Shown here piece by piece: positions 6,108 to 23,452 of a DNA stretch of 23,452 bases. The position numbers were made by a program, and so were the translations under genes. The notes beneath the pieces are model-generated. The model did not search any database, was not told where the DNA came from, and saw only the letters and a program-made list of their open reading frames with translations. Origin of the DNA: a virus (taxonomy: Duplodnaviria > Heunggongvirae > Uroviricota > Caudoviricetes); IMG/VR virus record IMGVR_UViG_2609460346_000013. One strand, written 5' to 3'. Every line of letters starts with the position of its first letter. Within the stretch, counting starts at the first letter, position 1.

Positions 6108-6482
6108 ATGGGGAAGCAAGGCAAAGGCAAAGGCAACAAAAATCAGGTTAAGGTTACGTGGGCTCAGGCGTGGCGGGATGTAATGATAAGAGCCATGTCT
6201 AATGGTCAGTTGATACCTATTACCATCAGTATTATTTTAATGATTGCTGCATGGAGGTTACCAAAAACAGACTTGTCCAATTTAGCCTTCTCTATTGTTG
6301 ATGGCTTTAAGGAGCATTCCTTGGTTGGTTGGGCTATCTCGGTAATAGTGGGTTTGGCTTGGTCTGCACATGCGCGAATCATGAGGCGCTGTTTTAGTTC
6401 CGAGGCACAGAGAATCGGTAACGAGAAAACAAAGTATCAACAAAGACAGACCACTCAAGCCTTGGGTACAAGTGATAAATAG
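6108..6482 (+). CDS. Small membrane protein with two predicted transmembrane helices (124 aa; start uncertain)
   Basis: Hydrophobic segments LIPITISIILMIAAW and LVGWAISVIVGLAW. Lies in the cargo island between A and cos. No recognised domain. Confidence 0.5.
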   Translation: MGKQGKGKGNKNQVKVTWAQAWRDVMIRAMSNGQLIPITISIILMIAAWRLPKTDLSNLAFSIVDGFKEHSLVGWAISVIVGLAWSAHARIMRRCFSSEAQRIGNEKTKYQQRQTTQALGTSDK

Positions 6483-6502
6483 TTGTTTATTTAGGAGTTA
6501 TT

Positions 6503-7060
6503 ATGCTGACAGTGCTGTTTTATGTGCTGTTGGGTTTAGGCGCAGCACACTTCATTTACGAGCGAATCATTTTGCCGTCCATCCGACTTCATTATAGAAA
6601 CCAATTGTTTGCGCTTCGTGATGTCGCTAGGAGGAAAATCATTGATGGAGGTTCCGATACTTCCATGCAAGCGGCAACACTTGTGCATGACTCATTGAAT
6701 AACGCTATCAATAGATTGCATTTACTCACGTTGCCAAACAAATTTCGTGCTCAAAAGCGTATGGCAGAAAACCATGCAATAAGGCAGAAAATTCGGCGTG
6801 AGATAGATGTTTTCAAACGCTGTGATGATAGAGAAGTTGTTGATGTACTGTTTAAATCCGGTCGGATACTTGAAAATGTACTGTTATTCAATAGCTTAAT
6901 GTTATTGCTTTACATGTTTCCATTTGTCCTTGCTGTATGGTTCTGTGTTAGGGTCATAAAGACAGCAAGTAGTTTAGTACAGTGGGTCAAAGGAAGAGAT
7001 TTAGAGGAAGCTATAATGCTGCTTCCTGATACTCAGGTTGAAAAGGTTGTATACGCATAA
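6503..7060 (+). CDS. Membrane protein with N- and C-terminal transmembrane helices (185 aa)
   Basis: AGGAG ribosome-binding site 6 nt upstream. Hydrophobic N-terminus (LTVLFYVLLGLGAAHFIY) and C-terminal helix (LLLYMFPFVLAVWFCVRVI). Followed directly by an intrinsic terminator. Confidence 0.6.
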   Translation: MLTVLFYVLLGLGAAHFIYERIILPSIRLHYRNQLFALRDVARRKIIDGGSDTSMQAATLVHDSLNNAINRLHLLTLPNKFRAQKRMAENHAIRQKIRREIDVFKRCDDREVVDVLFKSGRILENVLLFNSLMLLLYMFPFVLAVWFCVRVIKTASSLVQWVKGRDLEEAIMLLPDTQVEKVVYA

Positions 7061-7062
7061 AA

Positions 7063-7088
7063 ATCACCCCTTAGGGGGTGATTTTTTT
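7063..7088 (+). terminator. Rho-independent terminator
   Basis: 7-bp GC-rich stem (TCACCCC/GGGGTGA) with a TTAG loop, followed by a run of seven T. Confidence 0.8.
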
Positions 7089-7299
7089 ACATGACTTTTG
7101 ATTAGCTGACATTGTAAATCCGCATGTATCAGATGCATTGTTTTGCATGTGGAAATGGGTGTTTTCACTGCCAGCTATCGCTACATGTAGCAAAAACACG
7201 GGCTTAATAAGAAATCATTCTGCCATAAGGCATAACTTCCCCGCGTGCTCAGGTATTGACGTCATAGATATGGATCTTTTTTAATCAAGGTATGGTATT

Positions 7300-8247
7300 A
7301 TGAAGATATTTATTAGTTGGTCAGGTCAGGACAGCCTGGAGATAGCAAAAGTATTACGGGATTGGATACCGAATGTTATTCAAGTAGCTGAGCCGTACGT
7401 ATCAGCGGAAGATATTGATAAAGGCACTCGCTGGGCGACTGATATATCAAAGGAACTTGATGACTCTTCTTATGGGATTATTTGCCTTACAAAAAATAAT
7501 ATTAATGCACCGTGGATAAATTTTGAGGCGGGGGCTTTAGGTAAAAAGGTTGATAAGAGCCGGGTTAGTCCTTTCTTGTTTAAAATTAAACCATCTGAGA
7601 TAACAGGCCCAATATTACAATTCCAGTATACTCGTTCGGATGATAAGAACGATATTTTGAAGTTGATGTTGTCAATAAATAATCAAGCAGGATTTTTGAC
7701 TGAAGAACGCTTAACTAAAGCTTTCGAGCAATGGTGGCCAAGTTTAGAGCGTGAGTTAGATAACATTCAAGATATTAACCCTGTAGATAAAGATTCCACT
7801 AAAAAAACAAAAGGTGATTCGACTTCTGAGATACAAAATCTTTCCAAAATTGTTGAAAGTTTGCTGGATATTAGCCGAACAAATCACCAATTATTGCGTG
7901 ATCCAGCATCATTATTGCCAGAAGAATATGTTAGCAAAATAATAAACAGGGAAGGGCGTAAAGAAACTGTTTTAAAAATTGTAGCTTCTGATTTATTATC
8001 CATGCATCATTCACTAATTCGTGTAAAAAGAAGATTTATTCGTCGTGGTATTGATGAAACATCTAGGAGCGAGTTAATTGAATCATTAAATAAAATGATA
8101 ATGGATTGTTCTAGAGTAATCGCTCACTTAGATAATTATTGTGGGGCTTCATCAAACAATATGTTCAATAGTGCGCTTAGATTGCGGACCAGAAATTTAA
8201 TTGACATGATGGATGAGGAGGATGCAGAACGGGATGAAATGGAATAA
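7300..8247 (+). CDS. TIR-like domain protein with an uncharacterised C-terminal helical domain (315 aa)
   Basis: N-terminus MKIFISWSGQDS matches the TIR first-strand signature. Downstream ICLTKNNINAPWINFEAGAL fits the TIR W-x-x-E block that carries the catalytic glutamate. About 170 C-terminal residues have no recognised motif. Visibly AT-rich. Confidence 0.7.
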   Translation: MKIFISWSGQDSLEIAKVLRDWIPNVIQVAEPYVSAEDIDKGTRWATDISKELDDSSYGIICLTKNNINAPWINFEAGALGKKVDKSRVSPFLFKIKPSEITGPILQFQYTRSDDKNDILKLMLSINNQAGFLTEERLTKAFEQWWPSLERELDNIQDINPVDKDSTKKTKGDSTSEIQNLSKIVESLLDISRTNHQLLRDPASLLPEEYVSKIINREGRKETVLKIVASDLLSMHHSLIRVKRRFIRRGIDETSRSELIESLNKMIMDCSRVIAHLDNYCGASSNNMFNSALRLRTRNLIDMMDEEDAERDEME

Positions 8248-8791
8248 TCAATTTTGACTAATCATAAATAATTTTGCATATATAAACTTATAATGCCGCA
8301 GCCGCTATTTTTCAGCGGCTGTATATCGCTTATAATGGGTATGTTATTTTTATTTTGATAAAATCATTAAAATTGTCGATGTTATATGAATGCACATGTA
8401 TTATTAATGTTAGAAGATTATGCCTGCTTACGGCTATTGTGCTGAATTCAACTATGAACGCATCAGTATTAAAATCGTTCCATGAAATGTTCTTCGTCTA
8501 CAGCAGATGATGGGCAACGAAAAAATGACGCTGAGTGAGTTGGTCGGGGAGAATTGTTAGAGGTATTTATGGAGTGGTTTAATAATATCGGTCAATCCTG
8601 AGTTGCAGCATCACATAGACGATAGGGAATCTCTCCAGTCGTTCTGGAATGGCAGCGTTGAACAACAAGCACAGCGAGGCGTTAGATGCCCATCAGATTG
8701 ACACAGAGGGTTTATGAATCGCTGGGATTTACTTAGTTTGAAAAATAATATATTTATATGTTTTTGTATTGTGTTTGTTAAGGAGTTTGGA

Positions 8792-8998
8792 TTGAAAAGA
8801 AAACTGATTTGTGTTATGGCTTTTTGGGGGGCGTTGCTGGCTGGTTGTAATGAGAGTAATAAAAAAGAAGTTGAGGGTTGTATTGAAAGAGGTGTCCAAT
8901 ATTTTATAGAGATTGGTTCTTACCCTAAATTAAGTGATGGGCGTGATGCTGTAAAAGTTGCTACTGAACGTTGTAATAGAACAATAACGGCTTTCTGA
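8792..8998 (+). CDS. Small lipoprotein (about 68 aa from a TTG start; the ORF track's longer frame starts at 8714)
   Basis: AGGAG at 8781..8785 sits 6 nt before the TTG at 8792. Signal peptide with lipobox (KRKLICVMAFWGALLAGC). Stop is 2 nt before the next ATG. Confidence 0.5.
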   Translation: MKRKLICVMAFWGALLAGCNESNKKEVEGCIERGVQYFIEIGSYPKLSDGRDAVKVATERCNRTITAF

Positions 8999-9000
8999 TA

Positions 9001-9918
9001 ATGGATTATACGAGCTATATAATAGGACAGCTTCAGGTTGAGGATATTATTGATGCAATTAAAGGCGTTAATAATACTAATGTCATAAAAGATTATGTGC
9101 TGCCTGTAGTATTACCAATTATATCTTCTGTGCTGAGTTACTTTATTGCAACTAGGTTGTTTTATCGGCAGGAGTACCTTAAAGCACAAAGAAGAAAGGT
9201 AAGCGTTGTAAATAAATGTATTTATGACTACTTTTCTGCAATGACAACGTTGTTGCAAATTAAAGGGAATTATTATGGTGGGGTAAGTATAAGTGAAAAT
9301 CCTATCGAGAGGGCTTTAGCTTTTCCTGTTGTGGTTTTTTCTGGTGCTCCTCTATCATCAGATTTAAGTGAGTTGGCCTGTATATTGAGTCAAAAGGGAG
9401 TAGGGAATAATAGAGAGCCAGCAAAGACTACTAACTGGGGGGATGCTTTTGCTGTTAGTGATATAGCAAGAAGGTTTAACAGCCTATTGGCTGCATTAAA
9501 TGTTAGGAATGATTTTGATGACACCTATAGAGGAATGATTATTGAATCAACAGGTTCACCTTTGCCTACGATGCGTTTTAAAAATGATGATATTGTTAAT
9601 GCTATAGGTAGTAATAAGGCAGCTTATTACATTGATATTACTGAGCAAATAATGATTATGATAGATGTTTTGTTGCTTGATATTAATCTGTTGCTCAAAG
9701 AGTTGCCATTGTATGCTGAATCGCTGTTTGACAAAAGAGTAATGCAAGAAGATTCAGGGATTCTTAAATTCAATGATTTGCACGAACGTTTTCCTCTACT
9801 TATGAAACCTGTAACGCCACCTTCGATTAAACTCATGTCTGATTATTTGGGGTACAGTGAAGATGAGATCTTACGACGCTATCCATACCCGTTCTTTAAT
9901 ATGCATGATTGTGAATGA
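9001..9918 (+). CDS. Membrane-anchored hypothetical protein (305 aa, one N-proximal transmembrane helix)
   Basis: Hydrophobic segment VLPVVLPIISSVLSYFIATRLF. Tightly coupled to the upstream lipoprotein gene. AT-rich. No recognised domain. Confidence 0.6.
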   Translation: MDYTSYIIGQLQVEDIIDAIKGVNNTNVIKDYVLPVVLPIISSVLSYFIATRLFYRQEYLKAQRRKVSVVNKCIYDYFSAMTTLLQIKGNYYGGVSISENPIERALAFPVVVFSGAPLSSDLSELACILSQKGVGNNREPAKTTNWGDAFAVSDIARRFNSLLAALNVRNDFDDTYRGMIIESTGSPLPTMRFKNDDIVNAIGSNKAAYYIDITEQIMIMIDVLLLDINLLLKELPLYAESLFDKRVMQEDSGILKFNDLHERFPLLMKPVTPPSIKLMSDYLGYSEDEILRRYPYPFFNMHDCE

Positions 9919-10198: not shown

Positions 10199-11233
10199 TC
10201 AGCCGTTGTCAGTGTCCAGTGAGTAGTTTTTAAAGCGGATGACCTCCTGACCGAGCCAGCCGTTTATTTCCCGAATCCTGTCCTGTAACGGGATAAGTTC
10301 ATTGCGGACAAAGACCTTTGCCACTTTCTCAATATCGCCCAGCGACCCGACGTTTTCCGGCTTGCCACCCATCAACTGAAAGGGGATGCGGTGCGCGTCC
10401 AGCAGGTCAGCGGCGCTGGCTTTTTTGATATTAAAAAAATCGTCCTTCGTGGCCACTTCACTGAGCGGGATAATTTTAATGCCGTCGGCTTTTCCCTGTG
10501 GGGCATAGAGAAACAGGTTTTTAAAGTTATTGCGGCCTTTCGACTTCACCATGTTTTCGCGGAGCATTTCGATATCGTTGCGATCCTGCACGGCATCAGT
10601 GACGTACATGATGTATCCGGCATGTGCGCCGTTTTCGTAATACTTGCGGCGGAACAGCGTGGCCGACTCATTCAGCCAGGCAGAGTTAAGGGCGCTGAGA
10701 TATTCCGGCAGACCGTACAGCTCCTGATTAATATCCGGCTCCAGCAGGTGAAACACGGAGCCGGGCGCGAAAGGTGTCGGCTCGTTGAAGGACGGCACCC
10801 ACCAGTAAACATCCTCCTCCACGCCACGGCGGGGATATTTTGCCGGTGAGGTTTCCAGTCTGATGACCTTACCGGTGGTGCTGTAACGCTTTTCCAGAAA
10901 CGCATTACCGAATACCAGAAAATCCAGCACAAAGCGGCTGAAATCCTGCTGAGAAAGCCACGGGTGTGGGATAAACGTTGAGGCCAGAATGTTACGTTTG
11001 ACGTAAATCGGTGAGCTGTGATGCACGGCAGCACGCAGGCTTTTTGCCAGACCGGTAAAGCTGACTGGTGGCTCATACCATCTGCCGTTACTGATGCACT
11101 CGACGTAATCCAGAATGTCACGGCGGTCGAGTACCGGCACCGGCTCACCAAAGGTGAATGCCTCCATTTTCGGGGCGCTGGCGGTCATTTTTTTTGCCGC
11201 AGGTTGCGGTGTTTTCCCTTTTTTCTTGCTCAT
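10199..11233 (-). CDS. Q: Portal protein, P2 gpQ-like (344 aa)
   Basis: Length identical to recalled P2 gpQ, with the lysine-rich MSKKKGKTPQPAAK N-terminus. Lies next to cos and is divergent from the lysis and tail genes. Confidence 0.9.
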   Translation of the reverse strand: MSKKKGKTPQPAAKKMTASAPKMEAFTFGEPVPVLDRRDILDYVECISNGRWYEPPVSFTGLAKSLRAAVHHSSPIYVKRNILASTFIPHPWLSQQDFSRFVLDFLVFGNAFLEKRYSTTGKVIRLETSPAKYPRRGVEEDVYWWVPSFNEPTPFAPGSVFHLLEPDINQELYGLPEYLSALNSAWLNESATLFRRKYYENGAHAGYIMYVTDAVQDRNDIEMLRENMVKSKGRNNFKNLFLYAPQGKADGIKIIPLSEVATKDDFFNIKKASAADLLDAHRIPFQLMGGKPENVGSLGDIEKVAKVFVRNELIPLQDRIREINGWLGQEVIRFKNYSLDTDNG

Positions 11234-11740
11234 CAGTAAAACTCCAGAATGGTGGATGTCAGCGGGGTGCTGATACCGGCGGTGAGTGGCTCATTTAACA
11301 GGGCGTGCATGGTCGCCCAGGCGAGGTCGGCGTGGCTGGCTTCCTCGCTACGGCTGGCCTCATAGGTGGCGCTGCGTCCGCTGCTGGTCATGGTCTTGCG
11401 GATAGCCATGAACGAGCTGGTGATGTCGGTGGCGCTGACGTCATATTCCAGACAGCCACGGCGGATGACGTCTTTTGCCTTGAGCACCATTGCGGTTTTC
11501 ATTTCCGGCGTGTAGCGGATATCGCGTGCGGCGGGATAGAACGAGCGCACGAGCTGGAACACGCCGACACCGAGGCCGGTGGCATCAATTCCGATGTATT
11601 CGACGTTGTATTTTTCGGTGAGTTTGCGGATGGATTCCGCCTGAGTGGCAAAGTCCATGCCTTTCCACTGGTGACGCTCAAGTATTCTGAATTTACCTCC
11701 GGCCACCACCGGCGGTGCCAGCACCACGCATCCGGCGCTG
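11233..11740 (-). pseudogene. P: Terminase ATPase subunit P, C-terminal fragment only (about 165 codons; N-terminal part deleted)
   Basis: The reading frame stops overlapping the Q start as in P2, but only about 165 codons remain instead of about 590. The upstream end abuts a truncated K on the opposite strand. Confidence 0.75.
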
Positions 11741-11743
11741 GCC

Positions 11744-12187
11744 GTGTCCGAAGGGACGGCGAATCATCCGCTGACGAAAAACCGGGGCTATGACGTGATA
11801 GTCACCGGACTGGACGGAAAGCCGGAAATTTTCACCGACTACAGTGACCACCCGTTCGCACATGGTCGACCGGCGAAGGTGTTTAACCGTCGCGGTGAAA
11901 AATCCACGGCCTCCGGTCGCTATCAGCAGCTTTACCTGTTCTGGCCGCATTACCGCAAACAGCTTGCCCTGCCGGATTTCAGTCCGTTGTCACAGGACAG
12001 GCTCGCCATTCAGTTGATCCGCGAACGCGGTGCACTGGATGACATCCGGGCGGGACGCATTGAGCGCGCCATTTCACGCTGTCGCAATATCTGGGCGTCC
12101 CTGCCGGGTGCCGGTTACGGTCAGCGTGAGCATCCACTGGAAAAACTGGTCACCGTCTGGCGTACCGCCGGCGGCGTACCGGCTTAA
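11744..12187 (+). pseudogene. K: Endolysin K (lambda R-like transglycosylase), N-terminally truncated with no native ATG
   Basis: The frame carries the SEGT block with the catalytic glutamate, then GYDVIV and WASLPGAGYGQ motifs of R/K-type lysozymes. The residues before LAVSEGT are unrelated, and only a GTG at 11744 with no ribosome-binding site could start it. Confidence 0.75.
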
Positions 12188-12201
12188 ACGGAGTAAACAC
12201 C

Positions 12202-14131: not shown

Positions 14132-14917
14132 TTATGAGTGATTTTTATTTGATGCTTTGTATTCTAAAACCTTCTTATTGGCGTAAAAGAATTTTGTATA
14201 TGACAGGAATATAACCAGACCTGAAGTGAAATAGACGAGGGATAGTATTAATAATGCTTTTTTGCGACTGTTATTATCTTTAATCTCCAGGCTTAACCAT
14301 TCGGAGTCCTCCTCGTTTAGCTGTAAGAGCTTATTGCAGGCGATTTCAGGAAGTGTGTCTTTTATAAATACGTTTTGCAGTCTCTTGCAATCGGCAAGGC
14401 TATAAGTTTTATTAAATTCAACTGCTTTATTTTTGAAGGATAAAAGAACTTTGTCACTATAAACATAGTACATCATGTTTTTATATGGTATGCCTATGGC
14501 ATCCCTTACTATAACGGATTGTTCGTTGTGTATGTAACATGCGAGGAGAATGTAAAAAATACTGGCCAGAATTACAATTATTGTTTTAATTATGTGTGGT
14601 GGTTTTGTTATGTCACCCCAGATGCGAGTAAGGAAAAAATACGATGTTTTTAGTTTTCCATCAATCAGTCCCTGCTGTATCATTCTCACATTTTCAATGC
14701 CTGATACATTGATTCCGTTAATTATTTTAAATAGTTGAATGTCGCGCCACTCGCGGTCAAGTCTTTTTAATTTTTTGTCTGAATATCCAAAATTGAAATA
14801 ATGTGCAATAAGCCTCATAAGGTTACTTTTACCAAAGCTAAAAAATGCTAATACTGCAAAGCTACAAAGGAAAAAAACGATTAGCCCCCACACATTAGTC
14901 ACATTATAGCTGACCAT
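14132..14917 (-). CDS. Multi-pass membrane protein, cargo gene antisense to the tail operon (261 aa)
   Basis: Strong AAGGAGA ribosome-binding site on the minus strand 8 nt before the ATG at 14917. Hydrophobic helices at the N-terminus, middle and C-terminus. Very AT-rich. Occupies the position of the antisense orf30 between S and V in P2. Confidence 0.7.
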   Translation of the reverse strand: MVSYNVTNVWGLIVFFLCSFAVLAFFSFGKSNLMRLIAHYFNFGYSDKKLKRLDREWRDIQLFKIINGINVSGIENVRMIQQGLIDGKLKTSYFFLTRIWGDITKPPHIIKTIIVILASIFYILLACYIHNEQSVIVRDAIGIPYKNMMYYVYSDKVLLSFKNKAVEFNKTYSLADCKRLQNVFIKDTLPEIACNKLLQLNEEDSEWLSLEIKDNNSRKKALLILSLVYFTSGLVIFLSYTKFFYANKKVLEYKASNKNHS

Positions 14918-16893: not shown

Positions 16894-17416
16894 TTCGCGA
16901 CTGCTGCCGACCGGCTCATCACCGCTTGAGGTCGCCGCCGCAAAAGCCTGTGCGGAAATTGAAAAAACACCGGTCAGTATTCGTGAGCTGTGGAACCCGG
17001 ACTCCTGTCCGGCAAATCTGCTGCCGTGGCTGGCGTGGGCGTTTTCGGTCGACAGGTGGGATGAAAAGTGGCCGGAAGCGACAAAACGCGCCGTTATCCG
17101 CGATGCCTATTTCATCCACTGTCATAAAGGCACTATCGGCGCAATCCGACGCGTGGTGGAGCCGCTCGGCTATCTCATCAACGTGACGGAGTGGTGGGAA
17201 AACAGTGACCCGCCCGGCACCTTCCGGCTTGATATTGGTGTACTGGAAAGCGGTATCACAGAGGCAATGTATCAGGAAATGGAACGGCTGATTGCCGATG
17301 CCAAACCTGCAAGCCGCCACCTTATTGGCCTGAACATTACCCGGGACATTCCCGGCTATCTGTTCGCCGGTGGTGTGGCTTACGACGGCGATGTAATTAC
17401 GGTTTACCCCGGATAA
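16886..17416 (+). CDS. I: Baseplate protein I (176 aa)
   Basis: Overlaps the J stop by 8 nt. Length matches recalled P2 gpI. Confidence 0.85.
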   Translation: MSDSRLLPTGSSPLEVAAAKACAEIEKTPVSIRELWNPDSCPANLLPWLAWAFSVDRWDEKWPEATKRAVIRDAYFIHCHKGTIGAIRRVVEPLGYLINVTEWWENSDPPGTFRLDIGVLESGITEAMYQEMERLIADAKPASRHLIGLNITRDIPGYLFAGGVAYDGDVITVYPG

Positions 17417-17426
17417 GTGAGGAATA

Positions 17427-19472
17427 ATGAGCATAAAATTCAGAACCGTTATCACCACTGCCGGTGCAGCAAAGCTGGCAGCGGCAACCGCGCCGGGAGG
17501 GCGGAAGGTCAACATTACCACGATGGCCGTCGGGGATGGCGGTGGTAAATTGCCTGTCCCGGATGCCGGACAGACCGGGCTTATCCATGAAGTCTGGCGA
17601 CATGCGCTGAACAAAATCAGCCAGGACAAACGAAACAGTAATTATATTATCGCCGAGCTGGTTATTCCGCCGGAGGTGGGCGGTTTCTGGATGCGTGAGC
17701 TTGGCCTGTACGATGATGCGGGAACATTAATTGCCGTGGCGAACATGGCCGAAAGTTATAAGCCAGCTCTTGCCGAAGGCTCAGGGCGTTCGCAGACCTG
17801 TCGCATGGTCATCATCGTCAGCAGTGTGGCCTCAGTGGAGCTGACCATTGACACCACAACGGTGATGGCGACTCAGGATTACGTTGATGACAAAATTGCA
17901 GAGCATGAACAGTCACGACGTCACCAGGACGCCTCGCTGACCGCAAAAGGTTTTACTCAGTTAAGCAATGCGACCAACAGCACGTCTGAAACACTGGCCG
18001 CAACGCCGAAAGCGGTTAAGGCCGCATATGACCTTGCTAACGGGAAATATACCGCACAGGACGCTACCACAGCGCGAAAAGGTCTTGTCCAGCTAAGTAG
18101 TGCGACCAACAGCATATCTGAAACGCTCGCCGCAACACCAAAAGCCGTTAAGACGGTAATGGATGAAACGAACAAGAAAGCGCCATTAAACAGCCCTGCA
18201 CTGACCGGAACGCCAACGACGCCAACTGCGCGACAGGGAACGAATAATACTCAGATCGCAAACACGGCTTTCGTTATGGCCGCGATTGCCGCCCTTGTAG
18301 ACTCGTCGCCTGACGCACTGAATACGCTGAACGAGCTGGCGGCGGCGCTGGGCAATGACCCGAATTTTGCTACCACCATGACTAATGCGCTTGCGGGTAA
18401 GCAACCGAAAGATGCCACTTTGACGGCGCTGGCGGGGCTTGCTACTGCGGCAGACAGGTTTCCGTATTTTACGGGGAATGATGTTGCCAGCCTGGCGACC
18501 CTGACAAAAGTCGGGCGGGATATTCTGGCTAAATCGACCGTTGCCGCTGTTATCGAATATCTCGGTTTACAGGAAACGGTAAACCGAGCCGGGAACGCCG
18601 TGCAAAAAAATGGCGATACTTTGTCCGGCGGGCTTACTTTTGAAAACGACTCAATCCTTGCCTGGATTCGAAATACTGACTGGGCGAAGATTGGATTTAA
18701 AAATGATGCCGATGGTGACACTGATTCATATATGTGGTTTGAAACAGGTGACAACGGCAATGAATATTTCAAATGGAGAAGTCGCCAGAGCACCACAACA
18801 AAAGACCTGATGAATCTTAAATGGGATGCTCTGTATGTTCTTGTTAAAGCCCTTTTCAGCAGTGAAGTAAAAATATCTACAGTCAATGCACTGAGGATAT
18901 TTAATTCATCTTTTGGGGCTATTTTTCGCCGTTCTGAAGAAAACCTGTATATCATTCCTACACGAGAAAATGAGGGTGAAAATGGAGATATTGGGCCATT
19001 AAGGCCATTCGGCATCAACTTAAGAACAGGAGTTGTGTCTGTTGGTAATGGTGCCAGGATTGATGGCGGGCTGGCACTTGGCACGAATAACGCGTTGGGT
19101 GGGAACTCTATTGTTCTTGGTGATAACGACACCGGATTTAAACAAAATGGCGATGGTAATCTGGATGTTTATGCTAATAACGTCCATGTTATGCGCTTTG
19201 TTTCCGGAAGCATTCAAAGTAATAAGACCATAAATATTACGGGGCGTGTTAATCCCTCGGATTACGGTAACTTTGATTCCCGCTATGTGAGAGATATCAG
19301 ACTTGGCACACGTGTTGTCCAGACCATGCAGAAAGGGGTGATGTATGAGAAAGCAGGGCACGTAATTACCGGGCTTGGTATTGTCGGTGAAGTCGATGGT
19401 GATGACCCCGCAGTATTCAGGCCAATACAAAAATACATCAATGGCACATGGTATAACGTCGCACAGGTGTAA
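17427..19472 (+). CDS. H: Tail fibre protein H (681 aa)
   Basis: GAGGAA ribosome-binding site. Conserved P2-H-type N-terminus (MSIKFRTVITTAGAAKLAAA). Internal repeated SATNS-SETLAATPKAVK motif. The C-terminal third is visibly AT-richer. Confidence 0.85.
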   Translation: MSIKFRTVITTAGAAKLAAATAPGGRKVNITTMAVGDGGGKLPVPDAGQTGLIHEVWRHALNKISQDKRNSNYIIAELVIPPEVGGFWMRELGLYDDAGTLIAVANMAESYKPALAEGSGRSQTCRMVIIVSSVASVELTIDTTTVMATQDYVDDKIAEHEQSRRHQDASLTAKGFTQLSNATNSTSETLAATPKAVKAAYDLANGKYTAQDATTARKGLVQLSSATNSISETLAATPKAVKTVMDETNKKAPLNSPALTGTPTTPTARQGTNNTQIANTAFVMAAIAALVDSSPDALNTLNELAAALGNDPNFATTMTNALAGKQPKDATLTALAGLATAADRFPYFTGNDVASLATLTKVGRDILAKSTVAAVIEYLGLQETVNRAGNAVQKNGDTLSGGLTFENDSILAWIRNTDWAKIGFKNDADGDTDSYMWFETGDNGNEYFKWRSRQSTTTKDLMNLKWDALYVLVKALFSSEVKISTVNALRIFNSSFGAIFRRSEENLYIIPTRENEGENGDIGPLRPFGINLRTGVVSVGNGARIDGGLALGTNNALGGNSIVLGDNDTGFKQNGDGNLDVYANNVHVMRFVSGSIQSNKTINITGRVNPSDYGNFDSRYVRDIRLGTRVVQTMQKGVMYEKAGHVITGLGIVGEVDGDDPAVFRPIQKYINGTWYNVAQV

Positions 19473-19475
19473 TTT

Positions 19476-20003
19476 ATGCAGCATTTAAAAAATATTACTG
19501 CGGGTAATCCAAAAACTGTTGCCCAATATCAACTGACAAAAAATTTTGATGTTATCTGGTTATGGTCCGAAGAGGGAAAAAACTGGTATGAGGAAGTAAG
19601 TAATTTTCAGGAAGACACGATAAAGATTGTTTACGACGAGAATAATATAATTGTCGGCATCACCAGAGATGCTTCAACGCTTAACCCTGAAGGTTTCAGC
19701 GTTGTCGAGGTTCCTGATATTACCTCCAACCGACGTGCTGATGACTCAGGTAAATGGATGTTTAAGGATGGTGCCGTGATTAAGCGGATTTATACGGCAG
19801 ATGAACAGGAGCAACAGGCAGAATCACAAAAAGCAGCTTTACTTTCCGAAGCGGAAAGCGTTATTCAGCCACTGGAACGCGCTGTCAGGCTGAATATGGC
19901 GACGGATGAGGAATGCGCACGACTGGAGTCATGGGAACGCTACAGCGTTCTGATCAGCCGTGTGGATCCTGCAAATCCTGAATGGCCGGAAATGCCGCAA
20001 TAA
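19476..20003 (+). CDS. G: Tail fibre assembly chaperone G (175 aa)
   Basis: Directly downstream of H. Length matches recalled P2 gpG. Confidence 0.8.
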
Positions 20004-20224
20004 GTTGTATAAGCTCTGGTGTGAGATTACATATCTATGGCACAGAGTAAAGCCTAATCTGACAGGCCGCTCTGTGTCTGGAGTAGATTTTAGTAAAGCA
20101 TTATTTTATTAGTGCAAATTCTAATCAATACATTTTATGTATATGATATCCTACGGACTTTAATGACTTGGTTTAGGCTAACCAGATAACACTGAAGGAA
20201 TATTTTTGATAATTAAGGTGCGGT

Positions 20225-20818
20225 ATGTTTACTAAGCGACGATTAAAAAATATTAACTGGGAGGCAAGTTCAGTGATTCTTGCTATGGTTCTCTTTGTTG
20301 GAAATATATTTTATACAAATCATCGTGATGATATAAGCATGGAGGCTGAGAGGGACAGTATCAGAACAATGTTTGCATATGAAATCGCTAATAACCATCG
20401 CGCTCTCACTTTTCTTGATAAAACGAGACATATTGGCTTTGACGAAAATTCGGAGCATTTTGTTGGCGAGCCTTTTGCCATTAATGTCAAATCATTAGGG
20501 GGACCTCGCTTACAGATTGCATTAAACCAGACTGATAAAGTGTTTAAATCCTACTTCGGCGAATTAAGTAAGCTTGATAAAGAGGATGTTACTCTTCTTA
20601 TGGACTATTACCATGAGCAAAGCATCCTGCTGGAGCGTGTAAAATCTACGTTACAGAAGATGAAAAGTGGTAATGATATTAAAGTTGATATTGATGGTTG
20701 CTTATTAGAAGAACACTTCATGAATGAGCTTAATCTTTCTAATATTTTGCTTAAACGCTATAGCTATTTATTATCACAACACGCTAAGGAACATAAAACA
20801 AAAGATTTACATAATTGA
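20225..20818 (+). CDS. N-terminally membrane-anchored hypothetical protein (197 aa), cargo gene at the P2 Z/fun position
   Basis: AAGGTG ribosome-binding site. One N-terminal hydrophobic helix (SSVILAMVLFVGNIFY), then a soluble domain with no recognised motif. AT-rich. Confidence 0.6.
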   Translation: MFTKRRLKNINWEASSVILAMVLFVGNIFYTNHRDDISMEAERDSIRTMFAYEIANNHRALTFLDKTRHIGFDENSEHFVGEPFAINVKSLGGPRLQIALNQTDKVFKSYFGELSKLDKEDVTLLMDYYHEQSILLERVKSTLQKMKSGNDIKVDIDGCLLEEHFMNELNLSNILLKRYSYLLSQHAKEHKTKDLHN

Positions 20819-21044
20819 TAATCTGCTAATGGTTATTCATGGGGTAACTATGTTTTATATGTAATCCAGCCCAGATGAATTATTGATTCTGGATAATAAC
20901 CGCAGAGCGGCATATACCCTGACAGGCAAATGTCCGCTTCTTGCTCAAAGCAGACTGTCAGATTTGATAACTTTTGGGCTATGTAAACTGTCAGTCGGAA
21001 AATGAGTGTGTACAAATCAGGACAGGCGGGGGGAATTGCCCCCA

Positions 21045-21066
21045 TTTTTTTTTTTTTTTTTTTTTT
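21045..21066. repeat. Homopolymeric tract of 22 consecutive T, preceded by an imperfect GC hairpin (GGGGGGAATTGCCCCC)
   Basis: Counted directly. Lies between the cargo gene and the FI remnant. Confidence 0.9.
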
Positions 21067-21148
21067 CCACTGACCAGCCAGGTCAAATAGCGTCTCATGT
21101 ACTACCCAACGGAAAATAGTTGCACCCATTAACCACGGAGTTAAACGG

Positions 21149-21262
21149 ATGAGTGACTATCATCACGGCGTGCAGGTGCTGGAGATTAACGACGGCACCC
21201 GCGTCATTTCCACCGTATCCACAGCCATTGTCGGCATGGTCTGCACGGCTAGCCTCCCGTAA
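21149..21262 (+). pseudogene. FI: Tail sheath FI, N-terminal 37-codon remnant
   Basis: [35 protein letters not shown] matches the recalled P2 FI N-terminus, then runs into a stop after two more codons. Confidence 0.75.
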
Positions 21263-22013
21263 CAGGCTGGAAGCCAGTGTCGCTCCGTCACTGGCCGGAA
21301 TTAAAATCCCGCACATCGACCAGTCGCAGGAGTCCGATGCGAAATTCCTGACCCGTCTTGCTGAACGCAACGGCGGTGAGGTGTCGGTAAAAATGGGAAA
21401 ACTGCTGTTTCTCAAAGCGGGGCAGGGGGGGACGGTCAGCGGTAAAAAAATCCCGCAGATTACCATCACCCGCAGCGACGGCGACCGTCATCATTTTGCG
21501 ATTGCTGACCGTGGAGCCTACACAGGCGTAACGGCAAAGTGGTTACACACCAAAGACCCGAAGCCGCAAAAGCAGAAGGTAAAACTGAAACGCAAAAAGA
21601 AAGAGAAACACCTGCGCGCACTGGAGCACCCGAAAGCGAAACCGGTCACGCAGAAGAAAGAGCCAAAAGTACCGGAAGCGCGCGAAGGTGAATACATGGC
21701 CGGTGAGGCTGACAACGTTTTTGCCCTGACCACGGTATATGCCACGAAAGCACAGGCCATGCGCGCCGCTCAGGCGAAGTGGGATAAACTGCAACGGGGT
21801 GTTGCGGAGTTCTCCATCAGCCTGGCTACTGGTCGGGCAGATATTTACACGGAAACGCCGGTCAGAGTGTCAGGCTTTAAGCGCGTCATAGACGAGCAGG
21901 ACTGGACAATCACTAAGGTGACACATTTTCTGAATAATAGCGGCTTCACGACGTCCCTGGAGCTTGAGGTCAGGCTTTCTGATGTGGAGTACGAAACAGA
22001 AGATGATGAGTGA
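21263..22013 (+). pseudogene. D: Tail protein D, C-terminal fragment (about 240 codons), fused out of frame to the FI remnant
   Basis: The frame carries D-like C-terminal sequence (IPHIDQSQESDAKFLTRLAERNGGEVS ... lysine-rich linker ... RLSDVEYETEDDE). Its first about 36 codons in the ORF track are an out-of-frame read of FI. The exact junction lies within about 21255..21300. Confidence 0.7.
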
Positions 22014-22094
22014 TGTAATTTATTTATCTGTTTGTTTTATAAGGATAAATTAACTAAAATGGCACCATCAACAAAACCGGAAGAGGTGCTCGCG

Positions 22095-22313
22095 ATGTTT
22101 CATTGTCCTTTATGCCAGCATGCCGCACATGCGCGTACAAGCCGCTATATCACTGACACGACAAAAGAGCGTTATCACCAGTGTCAGAACGTGAATTGCA
22201 GCGCCACGTTCATCACTTATGAGTCGGTACAGCGATACATCGTGAAGCCGGGAGAAGTCCATGCCGTAAGGCCGCACCCGTTGCCGTCAGGACAGCAAAT
22301 TATGTGGATGTAA
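22095..22313 (+). CDS. ogr: Late-gene transcriptional activator Ogr (zinc finger, 72 aa from MFHCPLCQH)
   Basis: CxxC...CxxxxC zinc-binding pattern (CPLCQH...CQNVNC). Length and N-terminus match recalled P2 Ogr. It is the last prophage gene before host DNA. Confidence 0.9.
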   Translation: MFHCPLCQHAAHARTSRYITDTTKERYHQCQNVNCSATFITYESVQRYIVKPGEVHAVRPHPLPSGQQIMWM

Positions 22314-22323
22314 TCACAAAAAT

Positions 22324-22350
22324 AGCCCCTCAGTTGAGGGGCTTTATTTA
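22324..22350 (+). terminator. Rho-independent terminator after ogr
   Basis: 8-bp stem AGCCCCTC/GAGGGGCT with a 4-nt loop, followed by a U-rich tail (TTTATTTA). Confidence 0.75.
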
Positions 22351-22441
22351 TGGTCGATGTGGACGCTATGTGGACAGCGTTTGATATAAATCCATTTATA
22401 TCATCAGGTTAGGTGCTTTTTTGTGACACCATCCCTGTCTT

Positions 22442-22468
22442 CCCCCACATGATGTGGGGGTTTTTTTT
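22442..22468 (+). terminator. Rho-independent terminator, probably host-derived
   Basis: CCCCCACA/TGTGGGGG stem followed by eight T. Confidence 0.7.
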
Positions 22469-22549
22469 ATCCTCAATTTGCCTGCTGCTTAATGCATTGC
22501 AGATGATTTGCTTCCGTTATACTACCGTCAGTTGATAGCGGGAGTATTT

Positions 22550-23452
22550 ATGAATCAATCTTATGGACGGCTGGTCAGTCGGGCGGCGATTGCTGCGACG
22601 GCGATGGCTTCGCTGCTATTGCTGATTAAAATTTTTGCATGGTGGTATACCGGGTCGGTGAGTATTCTCGCCGCGCTGGTGGATTCGCTGGTGGATATCG
22701 GCGCGTCGTTGACGAATTTACTGGTGGTGCGATATTCCCTGCAACCTGCCGACGATAATCACTCGTTTGGTCACGGTAAAGCTGAGTCCCTCGCGGCGCT
22801 GGCGCAAAGTATGTTTATCTCCGGTTCGGCACTATTCCTGTTTTTGACGGGTATTCAACATCTGGTATCTCCAACACCGATGACAGATCCAGGCGTCGGG
22901 GTTATCGTGACAATTGTGGCGCTAATTTGTACGATTATCCTTGTCTCGTTTCAGCGTTGGGTGGTGCGCCGGACGCAAAGCCAGGCGGTGCGGGCTGATA
23001 TGCTACATTACCAGTCTGATGTTATGATGAACGGCGCAATTCTGCTGGCGCTGGGGTTGTCCTGGTACGGCTGGCATCGCGCCGATGCTCTGTTTGCATT
23101 GGGGATCGGCATCTATATTTTATATAGCGCGTTACGCATGGGATATGAGGCGGTACAGTCATTACTGGATCGCGCATTGCCTGATGAGGAACGGCAAGAA
23201 ATTATTGATATCGTGACTTCCTGGCCGGGTGTTAGCGGCGCTCACGATCTTCGCACGCGGCAGTCAGGGCCGACCCGCTTTATTCAGATTCATTTGGAAA
23301 TGGAAGACTCTCTGCCTTTGGTTCAGGCACATATGGTGGCGGATCAGGTAGAGCAGGCTATTTTACGGCGTTTTCCGGGATCGGATGTGATTATCCATCA
23401 GGACCCCTGTTCCGTCGTACCCAGGGAGGGTAAACGGTCTATGCTTTCATAA
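22550..23452 (+). CDS. fieF: Cation diffusion facilitator family Fe/Zn efflux transporter FieF (YiiP), 300 aa
   Basis: Starts [35 protein letters not shown] and carries the CDF signature with multiple transmembrane helices. Matches the enterobacterial FieF sequence as I recall it. GGGAG ribosome-binding site upstream. The stop is the last codon of the window. Confidence 0.9.

What the first reader, a model, noticed from the sequence alone, without database searches (positions are those of the whole stretch)
20225..20818. N-terminally anchored 197-aa cargo gene at the Z/fun position after the tail-fibre chaperone
P2 carries the Z/fun exclusion gene between G and FI. Here that position holds an AT-rich gene for a protein with one N-terminal transmembrane helix and an uncharacterised soluble domain, making it a third candidate exclusion or defence determinant.
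Basis: partly seen in the sequence, partly recalled or inferred. Interest (0 to 1): 0.55.

Follow-up and report, generated by a model that had tools for sequence, protein, structure and literature searches.

The report
Membrane-anchored orphan cargo gene in P2 hotspot
A P2-type prophage carries, at its known variable "Z/fun" slot, one foreign AT-rich gene for a membrane-anchored protein of unknown function, which is a reasonable but untested candidate for blocking other phages at the cell envelope.

Summary
Window 20225..20818 (+) is a real, intact 197-codon gene. It has 35% GC against 48% for the window and lies between the tail-fibre assembly gene G and the remnant of the sheath gene FI. That is the slot where P2 carries fun(Z).

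It is the only gene of an ~845-bp variable cassette (about 20086-20930) bounded by sequences conserved among P2-like phages. The protein has a basic N-terminus and one conserved hydrophobic helix (residues ~12-31). That helix runs straight into a four-helix bundle (AlphaFold pLDDT 83). By the positive-inside rule the bundle should face the periplasm.

It matches no Pfam, NCBIfam, PADLOC or PDB entry. It is unrelated to P2 Fun(Z). It belongs to PHROG 3829 ("unknown function"). NCBI's label "lysogenic conversion protein" rests on no experiment that I could find.

The family is tiny and evolves under purifying selection. It always travels as a single gene. Homologues occur in P2-like phages, P4-like satellites, plasmids and islands, several times beside defence-type genes.

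My best reading, at confidence 0.4, is an envelope-level superinfection-exclusion factor. No own promoter could be shown, so expression only by late-operon read-through is not excluded.

It is a testable candidate in a defence hotspot that is already known, and is of modest interest.

The parts
20225..20818 (+). Cargo ORF, 197 aa plus stop codon (PHROG 3829; called 'lysogenic conversion protein' in some NCBI records).
   Evidence: ORF listed. Full-length PHROG hit, E=8e-135. Identical protein found in 25 blocks of public assemblies. pN/pS 0.16-0.38.
20216..20221 (+). Shine-Dalgarno sequence AAGGTG, 3 nt upstream of the ATG.
   Evidence: Sequence read. The AAGG motif before the start codon is kept in most of the homologues from other genera.
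20258..20317 (+). Codons 12-31: predicted signal-anchor transmembrane helix. It is preceded by the basic N-terminus MFTKRRLKNIN.
   Evidence: Hydropathy and flank charges, +4 on the N side and -3 on the C side. AlphaFold helix 12-31, continuous to residue 66. Residues N11, W12, E13, A14, S16, V17, A20, M21 and F24 are invariant in the close family.
20330..20782 (+). Codons 36-186: soluble four-helix-bundle domain, predicted to be periplasmic. It contains the family motif IRTMFAYEIxxN (R47, E53, N57) and the conserved tip loop GEPFA...LGGxRL.
20086..20930 (.). Variable AT-rich cassette (GC 0.34) that replaces the fun(Z) segment of P2. It holds only this one ORF.
   Evidence: Similarity to the P2 reference and to P2-EC58 ends near 20085 on the left and resumes near 20930 on the right. 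GC. The cassette is 96-99% identical across 29 loci while the neighbouring gene G drops to 75%.
20004..20085 (.). Conserved left flank after the G stop codon. It contains a hairpin (about 20038-20077) and the left inverted-repeat arm 20056-20074.
   Evidence: Alignment with P2 and P2-EC58. Inverted repeat I1. RNA fold. P2-EC58 record AJ512683 annotates a 'left inverted repeat' here.
20931..21024 (.). Conserved right flank with the right inverted-repeat arm 20946-20964.
   Evidence: Invariant block in the alignment of the window, P2, E. coli A36 and P2-EC58. Inverted repeat I1. Annotated as 'right inverted repeat' in AJ512683.
21025..21066 (+). GC hairpin plus T run: the only terminator-like site downstream of the ORF. 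It is conserved in P2-like phages. In this window it is altered to a T22 run that overlies the pF activator-site region.
   Evidence: Terminator scan. Alignment. Comparison with assemblies that are 99.8% identical. P2 pF annotation.
19476..20003 (+). Upstream neighbour: tail-fibre assembly protein G.
   Evidence: Pfam Caudo_TAP, E=6.5e-35.
21149..21262 (+). Downstream neighbour: a 37-codon remnant of the sheath gene FI. It is fused at about 21253 to the 3' part of gene D.
   Evidence: The FI start aligns with P2 FI. An intact-FI locus matches the window only up to 21253. The D remnant carries Pfam Phage_GPD. Gene calls come from identical assemblies.

Best explanation
This is a one-gene 'moron'-type cargo cassette in the G-FI (Z/fun) hotspot of a P2-like prophage, which here is defective.

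The product is predicted to be a type II (N-in, C-out) inner-membrane protein. It has a short basic cytoplasmic N-terminus and one transmembrane helix with unusually conserved polar positions. That helix continues as the first helix of a four-helix bundle of about 150 residues, which projects into the periplasm.

I think it most likely acts as a superinfection-exclusion factor at the envelope. From the inner membrane and periplasm it would bind a host inner-membrane component or the incoming tail-tip or tape-measure apparatus of other phages. That would stop their DNA from crossing the inner membrane without masking outer-membrane receptors. HK97 gp15 is proposed to act in this way.

Shown here: the gene is real, is under selection, occupies the hotspot, moves on its own between mobile elements, and has the predicted architecture.

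Inferred: the membrane topology, expression in the lysogen, and the exclusion activity and its targets.
For: 1. Position. P2 carries fun(Z) in the same interval, and its record notes that the cloned gene blocks growth of T5. Vassallo et al. 2022 (PMC9519451) describe this locus as a second defence-enriched P2 hotspot holding three of their validated systems. Egorov et al. recover it as a hotspot (10.1101/2024.10.15.618418).

2. Foreign, self-contained cassette. It has GC 0.34 and sharp boundaries against conserved flanks. It is present in 201 of the 1041 complete E. coli genomes that match the region, and in 13 P2-like phage records.

3. Independence from the virion module. The cassette is 96-99% identical while the adjacent G gene ranges from 75 to 97% and the H C-termini differ.

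4. Single-gene cargo in unrelated mobile contexts:
- downstream of the alpha primase of P4-like satellites in Pantoea and Kosakonia;
- on an IncFII plasmid near IS91;
- in a plasmid leading region near ardA;
- in a Salmonella island next to a C5-methyltransferase and DUF4928;
- in Proteus next to a KAP-NTPase gene and next to a putAbiC-domain gene.

5. Architecture. All members have a basic N-flank and a neutral or acidic C-flank around the single hydrophobic helix. Four distant members carry CX4C pairs on the predicted periplasmic side, three in a C-terminal extension and one in the loop after the first bundle helix. The AlphaFold model is confident, with pLDDT 83. A periplasm-facing domain cannot sense cytoplasmic infection cues, which points to action at entry.

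6. The transmembrane helix is more conserved than a plain anchor needs to be: N11, W12, E13, S16 and N27 are invariant or nearly so. This suggests a specific contact within the membrane.

7. Purifying selection. The gene is kept intact in a prophage that has lost the FI-D genes and its head genes.
Against: - No paper mentions the family. It was not among the systems recovered in the Vassallo selection.
- No convincing sigma-70 promoter was found. The only scan hit would start transcription 4-5 nt before the ATG. No terminator lies between G and the ORF, so the gene may be transcribed only with the late operon.
- The hydrophobicity of the anchor is marginal.
- Hotspot cargo is not all defence. 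Most cargo in these hotspots is unannotated, and toxins also occur in the other P2 hotspot, old/tin.
- Truncated 99-aa alleles exist in about 40 contigs.
Confidence: 0.4

Rival explanations
1. The gene is a non-antiviral lysogenic-conversion factor. The periplasm-facing protein would change the host envelope for the host's benefit. Examples would be immunity to periplasm-acting colicins, tailocins or T6SS effectors, envelope-stress tolerance, or a surface or virulence trait.
For: Some NCBI records name the family 'lysogenic conversion protein'. It is carried on plasmids and small integrative elements as well as phages. One Pantoea copy lies a few kilobases from an Rhs toxin/immunity array. The architecture, an N-terminal anchor plus a small periplasmic domain, also fits anchored immunity proteins such as colicin M immunity (my own knowledge). 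The hotspot cargo is functionally mixed.
Against: The NCBI label has no matching NCBIfam model and no literature. It echoes the 'lysogenic conversion' note on P2 fun(Z), to which this protein is unrelated. No toxin partner gene is conserved next to it in any context. Several neighbours are defence-like rather than virulence-like.
Confidence: 0.2
2. The gene is a late-expressed accessory of the phage's own lytic cycle, transcribed by read-through from the V-W-J-I-H-G operon. It could exclude superinfecting phage during lytic growth, stop progeny from wasting themselves on lysing cells, or modulate lysis timing from the periplasmic side.
For: The gene has the same orientation as H and G and lies 221 nt downstream of G. 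No terminator-like site lies in between, and the only one follows the ORF at 21025-21066. No good promoter of its own was found, and the upstream DNA is not conserved between contexts. In P4-like satellites the homologue is likewise co-directional and directly downstream of the alpha primase gene.
Against: The gene is dispensable, since most P2-like phages lack it. Homologues function in contexts with no lytic cycle, such as plasmids and chromosomal islands. The prophage has its own lysis genes elsewhere. The gene stays intact in a lineage whose prophage can no longer make virions.
Confidence: 0.15
3. The gene is an abortive-infection effector. The single-pass protein would oligomerise through its conserved transmembrane helix and depolarise the membrane when infection perturbs the envelope.
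For: The transmembrane helix is strongly conserved and contains polar residues. Single-gene, membrane-anchored defence proteins are common in P2 hotspots. For example, the 2TM/1TM-TIR genes of this same prophage match PADLOC models. A homologue lies next to a putAbiC-domain gene.
Against: One marginally hydrophobic helix is a weak basis for a pore. The large conserved domain is on the predicted periplasmic side, where it cannot see intracellular phage cues. No toxicity or sensor module is recognisable.
Confidence: 0.1
4. The gene encodes a virion or tail-fibre accessory, such as a second chaperone or an adhesin helper, tied to the receptor-binding module next to it.
For: It lies immediately after the tail-fibre assembly gene. 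The same hotspot shows tail-fibre swapping.
Against: It has no similarity to any structural protein. The predicted membrane anchor argues against it. The cassette is paired with at least three different G/H alleles. Homologues occur in satellites, plasmids and islands that carry no tail-fibre genes.
Confidence: 0.03

Closest known systems
P2 Fun(Z) (NP_046777), the T5-exclusion / FUdR-sensitivity gene of phage P2
   Same: Both occupy the same slot between G and FI. Both are non-essential, AT-rich accessory cargo of a P2-like genome, bounded by the same conserved flanks and inverted repeats.
   Different: There is no sequence similarity (BLASTP E=2.2). The sizes are 197 and 528 aa. The genes are on opposite strands. 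Neither protein matches any Pfam family. The present protein has a predicted N-terminal membrane anchor; whether Fun(Z) has one was not examined. Only the position is shared.
HK97 gp15 (YebO-like moron protein), an inner-membrane superinfection-exclusion factor
   Same: Both are single-gene morons inserted among tail genes of a temperate coliphage. gp15 is a small protein that inserts into the inner membrane. It is proposed to block the incoming phage from forming a DNA channel, without touching outer-membrane receptors (PMC3594210). This is the mechanism I propose here.
   Different: No homology was detected, as no Pfam family of any kind was hit. The present protein is larger and has a folded four-helix-bundle ectodomain. 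Prophage expression and the exclusion phenotype are shown for gp15 and unknown here.
Validated Z/fun-hotspot defence systems of Vassallo et al. 2022 (their PD-T4 and PD-lambda series)
   Same: Same hotspot in P2-like prophages of E. coli (PMC9519451; 10.1101/2024.10.15.618418).
   Different: PADLOC-DB v2 holds models of known and candidate defence systems up to 2023, and to my knowledge these include the Vassallo systems. It gives no hit to this protein. No nuclease, NTPase or other enzymatic domain is recognisable.
Four-helix-bundle periplasmic sensor domains of chemoreceptors and sensor kinases (e.g. PilJ 8wdf, PcaY 6s18, Tsr 2d4u)

Membership tests
P2 Fun(Z) family | Sequence homology to Fun(Z) | tested here: not met
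   BLASTP best E=2.2 over 32 residues.
P2 Fun(Z) family | Located between tail-fibre assembly gene G and sheath gene FI | tested here: met
   G is at 19476-20003 and the FI start at 21149. The strand is opposite to that of fun(Z).
P2 Fun(Z) family | Blocks T5 growth / confers FUdR sensitivity | not testable with these tools
   This needs an expression and phage-challenge experiment.
Moron (independent accessory transcription unit in a phage genome) | Extra DNA of deviating composition, present in some relatives and absent from others, between conserved genes | tested here: met
   GC 0.34 against 0.48 for the window. Present in 201 of the 1041 E. coli genomes that match the region.
Moron (independent accessory transcription unit in a phage genome) | Own promoter active in the repressed prophage | tested here: inconclusive
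   Only one weak consensus match (20186-20213), which lies too close to the ATG. The upstream DNA is not conserved across contexts. There are no expression data.
Moron (independent accessory transcription unit in a phage genome) | Terminator downstream | tested here: met
   Hairpin plus T run at 21025-21066, conserved in P2-like phages. It is shared with the late operon rather than private to the cassette.
Known anti-phage defence systems (PADLOC-DB v2.0.0) | Significant match to a defence-protein model | tested here: not met
   0 families at E<=10. As a positive control, the same library recognises the TIR genes of this prophage.
Inner-membrane superinfection-exclusion proteins (functional class; e.g. 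HK97 gp15) | Inner-membrane insertion with a periplasm-exposed part | tested here: inconclusive
   This is predicted only. There is a single conserved hydrophobic helix, a +4/-3 charge asymmetry and an AlphaFold helix at 12-66. No experimental topology exists.
Inner-membrane superinfection-exclusion proteins (functional class; e.g. HK97 gp15) | Expressed from the prophage and blocks DNA entry of other phages after adsorption | not testable with these tools
   This requires expression plus efficiency-of-plating, adsorption and DNA-entry (e.g. potassium-efflux) assays.
Inner-membrane superinfection-exclusion proteins (functional class; e.g. HK97 gp15) | Homology to the YebO/gp15 family | tested here: not met
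   No Pfam family of any kind is matched by the protein or by 26 relatives at E<=1 beyond scattered single chance hits.
i-spanin (Rz-type) lysis proteins | Type II inner-membrane protein with a helical periplasmic domain | tested here: inconclusive
   The predicted architecture is compatible, but the domain is a closed four-helix bundle, not an extended coiled coil.
i-spanin (Rz-type) lysis proteins | Partner o-spanin lipoprotein gene embedded or adjacent, within the lysis cassette | tested here: not met
   No lipobox ORF lies within or next to the gene; the embedded ORFs of 41 and 46 aa lack a lipobox cysteine context. The gene lies in the tail region, not the lysis region. Homologues have no conserved neighbour.
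4HB_MCP-type periplasmic sensor domains | Four-helix bundle flanked by two transmembrane helices and linked to a cytoplasmic signalling module | tested here: not met
   There is only one hydrophobic segment; the next best has dG +12.8. The protein ends after the bundle. No Pfam hit. The similarity is to the fold only.

The most novel reading that the evidence does not exclude
The family (PHROG 3829 and its distant relatives) could be a previously unrecognised single-protein anti-phage determinant that works from the periplasmic face of the inner membrane. A four-helix-bundle ectodomain on a sequence-specific transmembrane helix would intercept the genome-delivery machinery of incoming phages. 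It would be shared as a portable single gene among P2-like phages, their P4-like satellites, plasmids and islands of Enterobacterales.
Probability: 0.35. Interest if true: 0.6.

Novelty: new member of a known kind. Interest (0 to 1): 0.36.

Why it matters
Envelope-level exclusion proteins are among the least understood antiviral functions, because they are small, orphan and invisible to domain-based defence finders.

This gene is common for an uncharacterised gene. It occurs in about 4% of complete E. coli genomes and about a fifth of those that match the P2-type G-FI region. It sits in a hotspot that has already yielded validated systems. It also has a confident structural model with an obvious conserved tip loop and transmembrane face to mutate.

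If it excludes phages, it would add a new fold and probably a new target to the short list of proteins that block DNA entry. It would also matter for predicting phage-therapy host range in E. coli. If it does not, it is one more hotspot cargo gene of unknown role.

Tried and rejected
Searches that found nothing:
- Domain and family searches with the single protein and with all 27 aligned relatives: Pfam, NCBIfam and PADLOC found nothing, and PHROGs gave only phrog_3829.
- PDB by sequence, with phmmer and with a profile, gave only E>=0.08 noise.
- An exhaustive profile search of 1.84 billion representative proteins found only 29 clusters. All have the same architecture and none has an added informative domain.
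- The first AlphaFold model, built from close relatives only, was poor (pLDDT 63.5). Adding distant relatives raised it to 83.4.
- Rfam found no RNA family in the window or in the cassette.
- Literature searches for the PHROG id, the FIG id and a RefSeq accession found nothing. Searches on P2 hotspots and exclusion found no paper on this family.
- The alignment-based scan of genome contigs with the wide alignment failed for lack of a conserved block. It was rerun with the close alignment.

Ideas rejected:
- Homology to Fun(Z).
- A tail-fibre-linked function.
- A spanin, because there is no lipoprotein partner.
- A conserved two-gene system, because no neighbour is shared across contexts.

Full report
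THE OBSERVATION

An AAGGTG ribosome-binding site lies 3 nt upstream of the ATG.

It is not a chance ORF. The G-FI interval (20004-21152) has a stop-codon probability of 0.072 per codon. The chance that 197 codons stay open is therefore about 4e-7. In 2000 shuffles of the interval the longest open run averaged 76 codons and never exceeded 157, against 201 observed.

The ORF has GC 0.35 and GC3 0.32. The window has 0.48, and the flanking genes have 0.50 (H), 0.445 (G) and 0.525 (D/ogr).

The upstream gene, 19476-20003, is a Caudo_TAP tail-fibre assembly protein. The gene before it is the P2-type tail fibre H. Downstream, at 21149, lies the start of the sheath gene FI. In the P2 reference genome the same interval holds fun(Z). 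It is annotated 'cloned gene blocks growth of T5; nonessential; lysogenic conversion'. The factual part of the finding is therefore confirmed.

ANATOMY OF THE LOCUS

I aligned the window with the P2 reference and with the P2-EC58 'Z-region' record. Similarity after the G stop codon runs to about 20085 and resumes at about 20930. The ~845 bp in between (GC 0.34) is the variable cassette, and it contains only this ORF.

The conserved flanks carry an imperfect inverted repeat, 20056-20074 against 20946-20964. This corresponds to the 'left/right inverted repeat' features annotated in AJ512683.

The only terminator-like structure on the plus strand downstream of G is the conserved GC hairpin plus T run at 21025-21066, after the cargo ORF. 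None lies between G and the ORF.

The only sigma-70-like match upstream (20186-20213) would start transcription 4-5 nt before the ATG, so it is not convincing. The upstream DNA is not conserved where the gene occurs in other genera, apart from a T-run and the AAGG motif.

The cassette therefore has the composition and patchy distribution of a moron. An autonomous promoter is not demonstrated, and read-through from the late V-W-J-I-H-G operon is possible.

THE PROTEIN

No Pfam, NCBIfam or PADLOC model matches. PHROGs gives a full-length hit to phrog_3829, annotated 'unknown function'. PDB sequence searches give nothing below E=0.08. There is no similarity to P2 Fun(Z).

Some NCBI records call the protein 'lysogenic conversion protein'. 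No NCBIfam model lies behind that name, and no paper in the library mentions the family. The label echoes the 'lysogenic conversion' note on fun(Z), and I found no experiment behind it.

The sequence starts with a basic stretch, MFTKRRLKNIN, with net charge about +4. A single hydrophobic segment follows at residues 14-30, with a summed Hessa scale of about +1.4 kcal/mol. The next-best segment scores +12.8. An acidic stretch follows the hydrophobic segment.

The same pattern, with the more positive flank on the N side in most members, holds in 25 of the 27 family members examined. By the positive-inside rule (established knowledge) this predicts an uncleaved signal anchor with the N-terminus in the cytoplasm and the rest in the periplasm. 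No signal-peptidase or lipobox motif follows the helix.

Four distant relatives carry CX4C cysteine pairs on the predicted periplasmic side. This is consistent with disulfide formation there.

An AlphaFold model built from close relatives only was poor, with pLDDT 63.5. Adding distant relatives gave pLDDT 83.4 and pTM 0.72, and all five models scored 81-83. The model shows:
- one continuous helix at 12-66, which is the membrane helix running into the first bundle helix;
- a conserved loop at 67-91, containing GEPFA and leading into LGGxRL (residues 91-96) at the start of the next helix;
- helices at 92-116, 119-148 and 151-186, which close a four-helix bundle.

Across the whole family only R47, N57 and L117 are invariant. 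S16, A51, E53, I54 and Y129 are nearly so. Within the close family the membrane helix itself is almost invariant, including the polar residues N11, W12, E13, S16 and N27. That is more than an anchor needs, and it suggests a specific contact within the membrane. This last point is inference.

THE FAMILY AND WHERE IT LIVES

A word-indexed search found 38 relatives, all in Enterobacterales. An exhaustive profile search of 1.84 billion representative proteins found only 29 clusters. All have the same length class and architecture. It is a small orphan family.

In E. coli the full cassette is present in 201 of 5426 complete genomes. That is about a fifth of the 1041 genomes that match the region at all. 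It is always placed G, then the ORF, then FI. It also occurs in 13 P2-like phage records, including P24E6b, P24B2, P22H1, D8, 12W, PhiR44_1 and P2_AC1.

Among 19 distinct alleles from the window and 27 IMG/VR loci there are no stop codons, and pN/pS is 0.16-0.38. A minority of truncated 99-aa alleles exists in about 40 contigs.

The cassette is 96-99% identical across loci in which the adjacent G gene is only 75-97% identical and the H C-terminus differs. The cassette is therefore not tied to a receptor-binding module.

Outside E. coli the gene appears, always alone, in very different mobile contexts:
- directly downstream of the alpha primase at the edge of P4-like satellites in Pantoea ananatis and Kosakonia, which is not the psu-int hotspot described by Rousset et al.;
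- on an Enterobacter IncFII plasmid beside IS91;
- in a plasmid leading region near ardA;
- in a small AlpA-type element in Pantoea;
- beside a 1524-aa AAA/NACHT-like ATPase;
- in a Salmonella island next to a C5-methyltransferase and DUF4928, directly beside fieF;
- in Proteus, 45 nt downstream of a KAP-NTPase gene in a phage contig, and next to a putAbiC-domain gene and an HD-domain gene in the chromosome.

No neighbour is shared across these contexts, so the gene functions on its own.

WHAT IT MOST LIKELY DOES

The hotspot is a published defence hotspot. Vassallo et al. report three of their validated systems there, plus fun(Z) (PMC9519451). Egorov et al. recover it with iLund4u. Rousset et al. 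analysed only the old/tin locus.

Five features bear on function:
- it is a portable single gene;
- it is common in prophages, satellites and plasmids;
- it is under purifying selection;
- it sometimes lies next to defence genes;
- its conserved domain is predicted to face the periplasm.

These fit best with an envelope-level superinfection-exclusion factor. Such a factor would interfere with genome delivery across the periplasm and inner membrane, as is proposed for the HK97 gp15 moron protein (PMC3594210). A periplasmic domain cannot sense intracellular infection cues, which makes classical sensor-effector or abortive-infection logic less likely.

I put this reading at 0.4. What is shown is the gene, its constraint, its mobility and its predicted architecture. 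What is inferred is the topology, expression in the lysogen and the activity.

The rivals are:
- a non-antiviral envelope conversion or immunity function (0.2);
- a late-expressed accessory of the phage's own lytic cycle, which the missing promoter and terminator make a real possibility (0.15);
- an abortive-infection membrane effector (0.1);
- a tail-fibre accessory (0.03), which the allele independence and the non-phage contexts argue against.

COMPARISON WITH KNOWN SYSTEMS, AND NOVELTY

The gene is a positional analogue of fun(Z), not a homologue. It may work like gp15-type inner-membrane exclusion proteins but is not a member of that family. It is not any PADLOC-catalogued defence protein. 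Its ectodomain has the fold, but not the context, of 4HB sensor domains.

The gene family is already catalogued (a PHROG and RefSeq clusters) but uncharacterised, and the hotspot is known. I therefore rate it a new member of a known kind, namely hotspot or moron cargo, and of modest interest (0.36). If an entry-blocking activity were shown, it would be a new structural type of exclusion protein, with interest around 0.6.

OTHER OBSERVATIONS

The prophage is defective. FI is cut to 37 codons and fused near 21253 to the 3' part of D. The same arrangement occurs in at least 20 public assemblies that are 99.7-99.9% identical to the window. The large terminase is reduced to its C-terminal 164 codons, and there is no room for head genes.

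The hairpin and T22 run at 21028-21066 is unique to this window among those near-identical assemblies, and it concentrates almost all the mismatches. It is probably a sequencing or assembly artefact. It overlies the pF activator site.

The old/tin hotspot of this prophage carries three genes that match the PADLOC 2TM-TIR, 1TM-TIR and TIR-TM models. A 261-aa AT-rich orphan ORF sits at the orf30 position.

Noticed in passing
window 21028-21066: The conserved terminator hairpin and the 22 nt after it read GGGGGGAATTGCCCCC followed by T22 in this window. Four public assemblies that are otherwise 99.7-99.9% identical over 17225-23452 read GGGCGAATTGCCCGC ATTTTCTTTATCTGTTGTTTCAT. Nearly all mismatches fall here. 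This is probably a sequencing or assembly artefact. It overlies the Ogr activator site of the pF promoter.
   Followed up: partly
window 21149-22013 (junction about 21253): The sheath gene FI is reduced to 37 codons and joined to the 3' part of gene D, so FI, FII, E, T, U and most of D are deleted. The same junction is present in at least 20 public E. coli assemblies, while one assembly with the identical cargo protein has an intact FI-T region.
   Followed up: partly
window 11233-12200: The large terminase gene P is reduced to its C-terminal 164 codons (Terminase_6C only). Only about 1.4 kb separates it from the R/S tail-completion genes, so the scaffold, capsid, small terminase and head-completion genes must be missing. 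This is a second large deletion in the prophage.
   Followed up: no
window 6108-8247 (and 8714-9918): The old/tin hotspot between gene A and portal gene Q carries three genes that match the PADLOC models 2TM-TIR, 1TM-TIR and TIR-TM (E=2e-58 to 2e-118). Two further AT-rich ORFs (94 and 305 aa) have no Pfam or PADLOC hit.
   Followed up: partly
window 14132-14917 (- strand): An AT-rich 261-aa ORF lies on the minus strand between tail-completion gene S and baseplate gene V, the orf30 position of P2. It has no Pfam or PADLOC match. It is another uncharacterised cargo gene.
   Followed up: no
L033 4172-6585; L035 4046-6591: Distant homologues (29-31% identity) in Proteus lie 45 nt downstream of a 593-aa KAP-family NTPase gene in a phage contig. 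In the P. mirabilis chromosome they lie next to a putAbiC-domain gene and an HD-domain gene beside ahpCF. The KAP-NTPase pairing could be a two-gene unit.
   Followed up: partly
L039 2903-6001; L034 3061-6591: In Pantoea ananatis and Kosakonia the homologue sits directly downstream of the alpha primase at the outer edge of a P4-like satellite. This is not the psu-int hotspot described for P4. It may be a second cargo site in P4-like elements.
   Followed up: no
L036 5170-10404: In Salmonella enterica a 62%-identical homologue lies between an ArsR/MarR-type HTH gene and a C5 DNA methyltransferase plus DUF4928 pair, immediately beside fieF-pfkA. This is the same chromosomal junction at which the window's prophage ends.
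   Followed up: no
window 17427-20003 versus L002-L031: Phages that share the 96-99% identical cargo cassette carry at least three different tail-fibre C-termini and G alleles; G is 75-76%, 87-89% or 94-97% identical. This shows frequent recombination at the cassette's conserved left flank.
   Followed up: partly
protein cluster of window 20225-20818: Truncated 99-aa alleles of the protein occur in about 40 contigs, including complete chromosomes. The gene is therefore occasionally inactivated.
   Followed up: no
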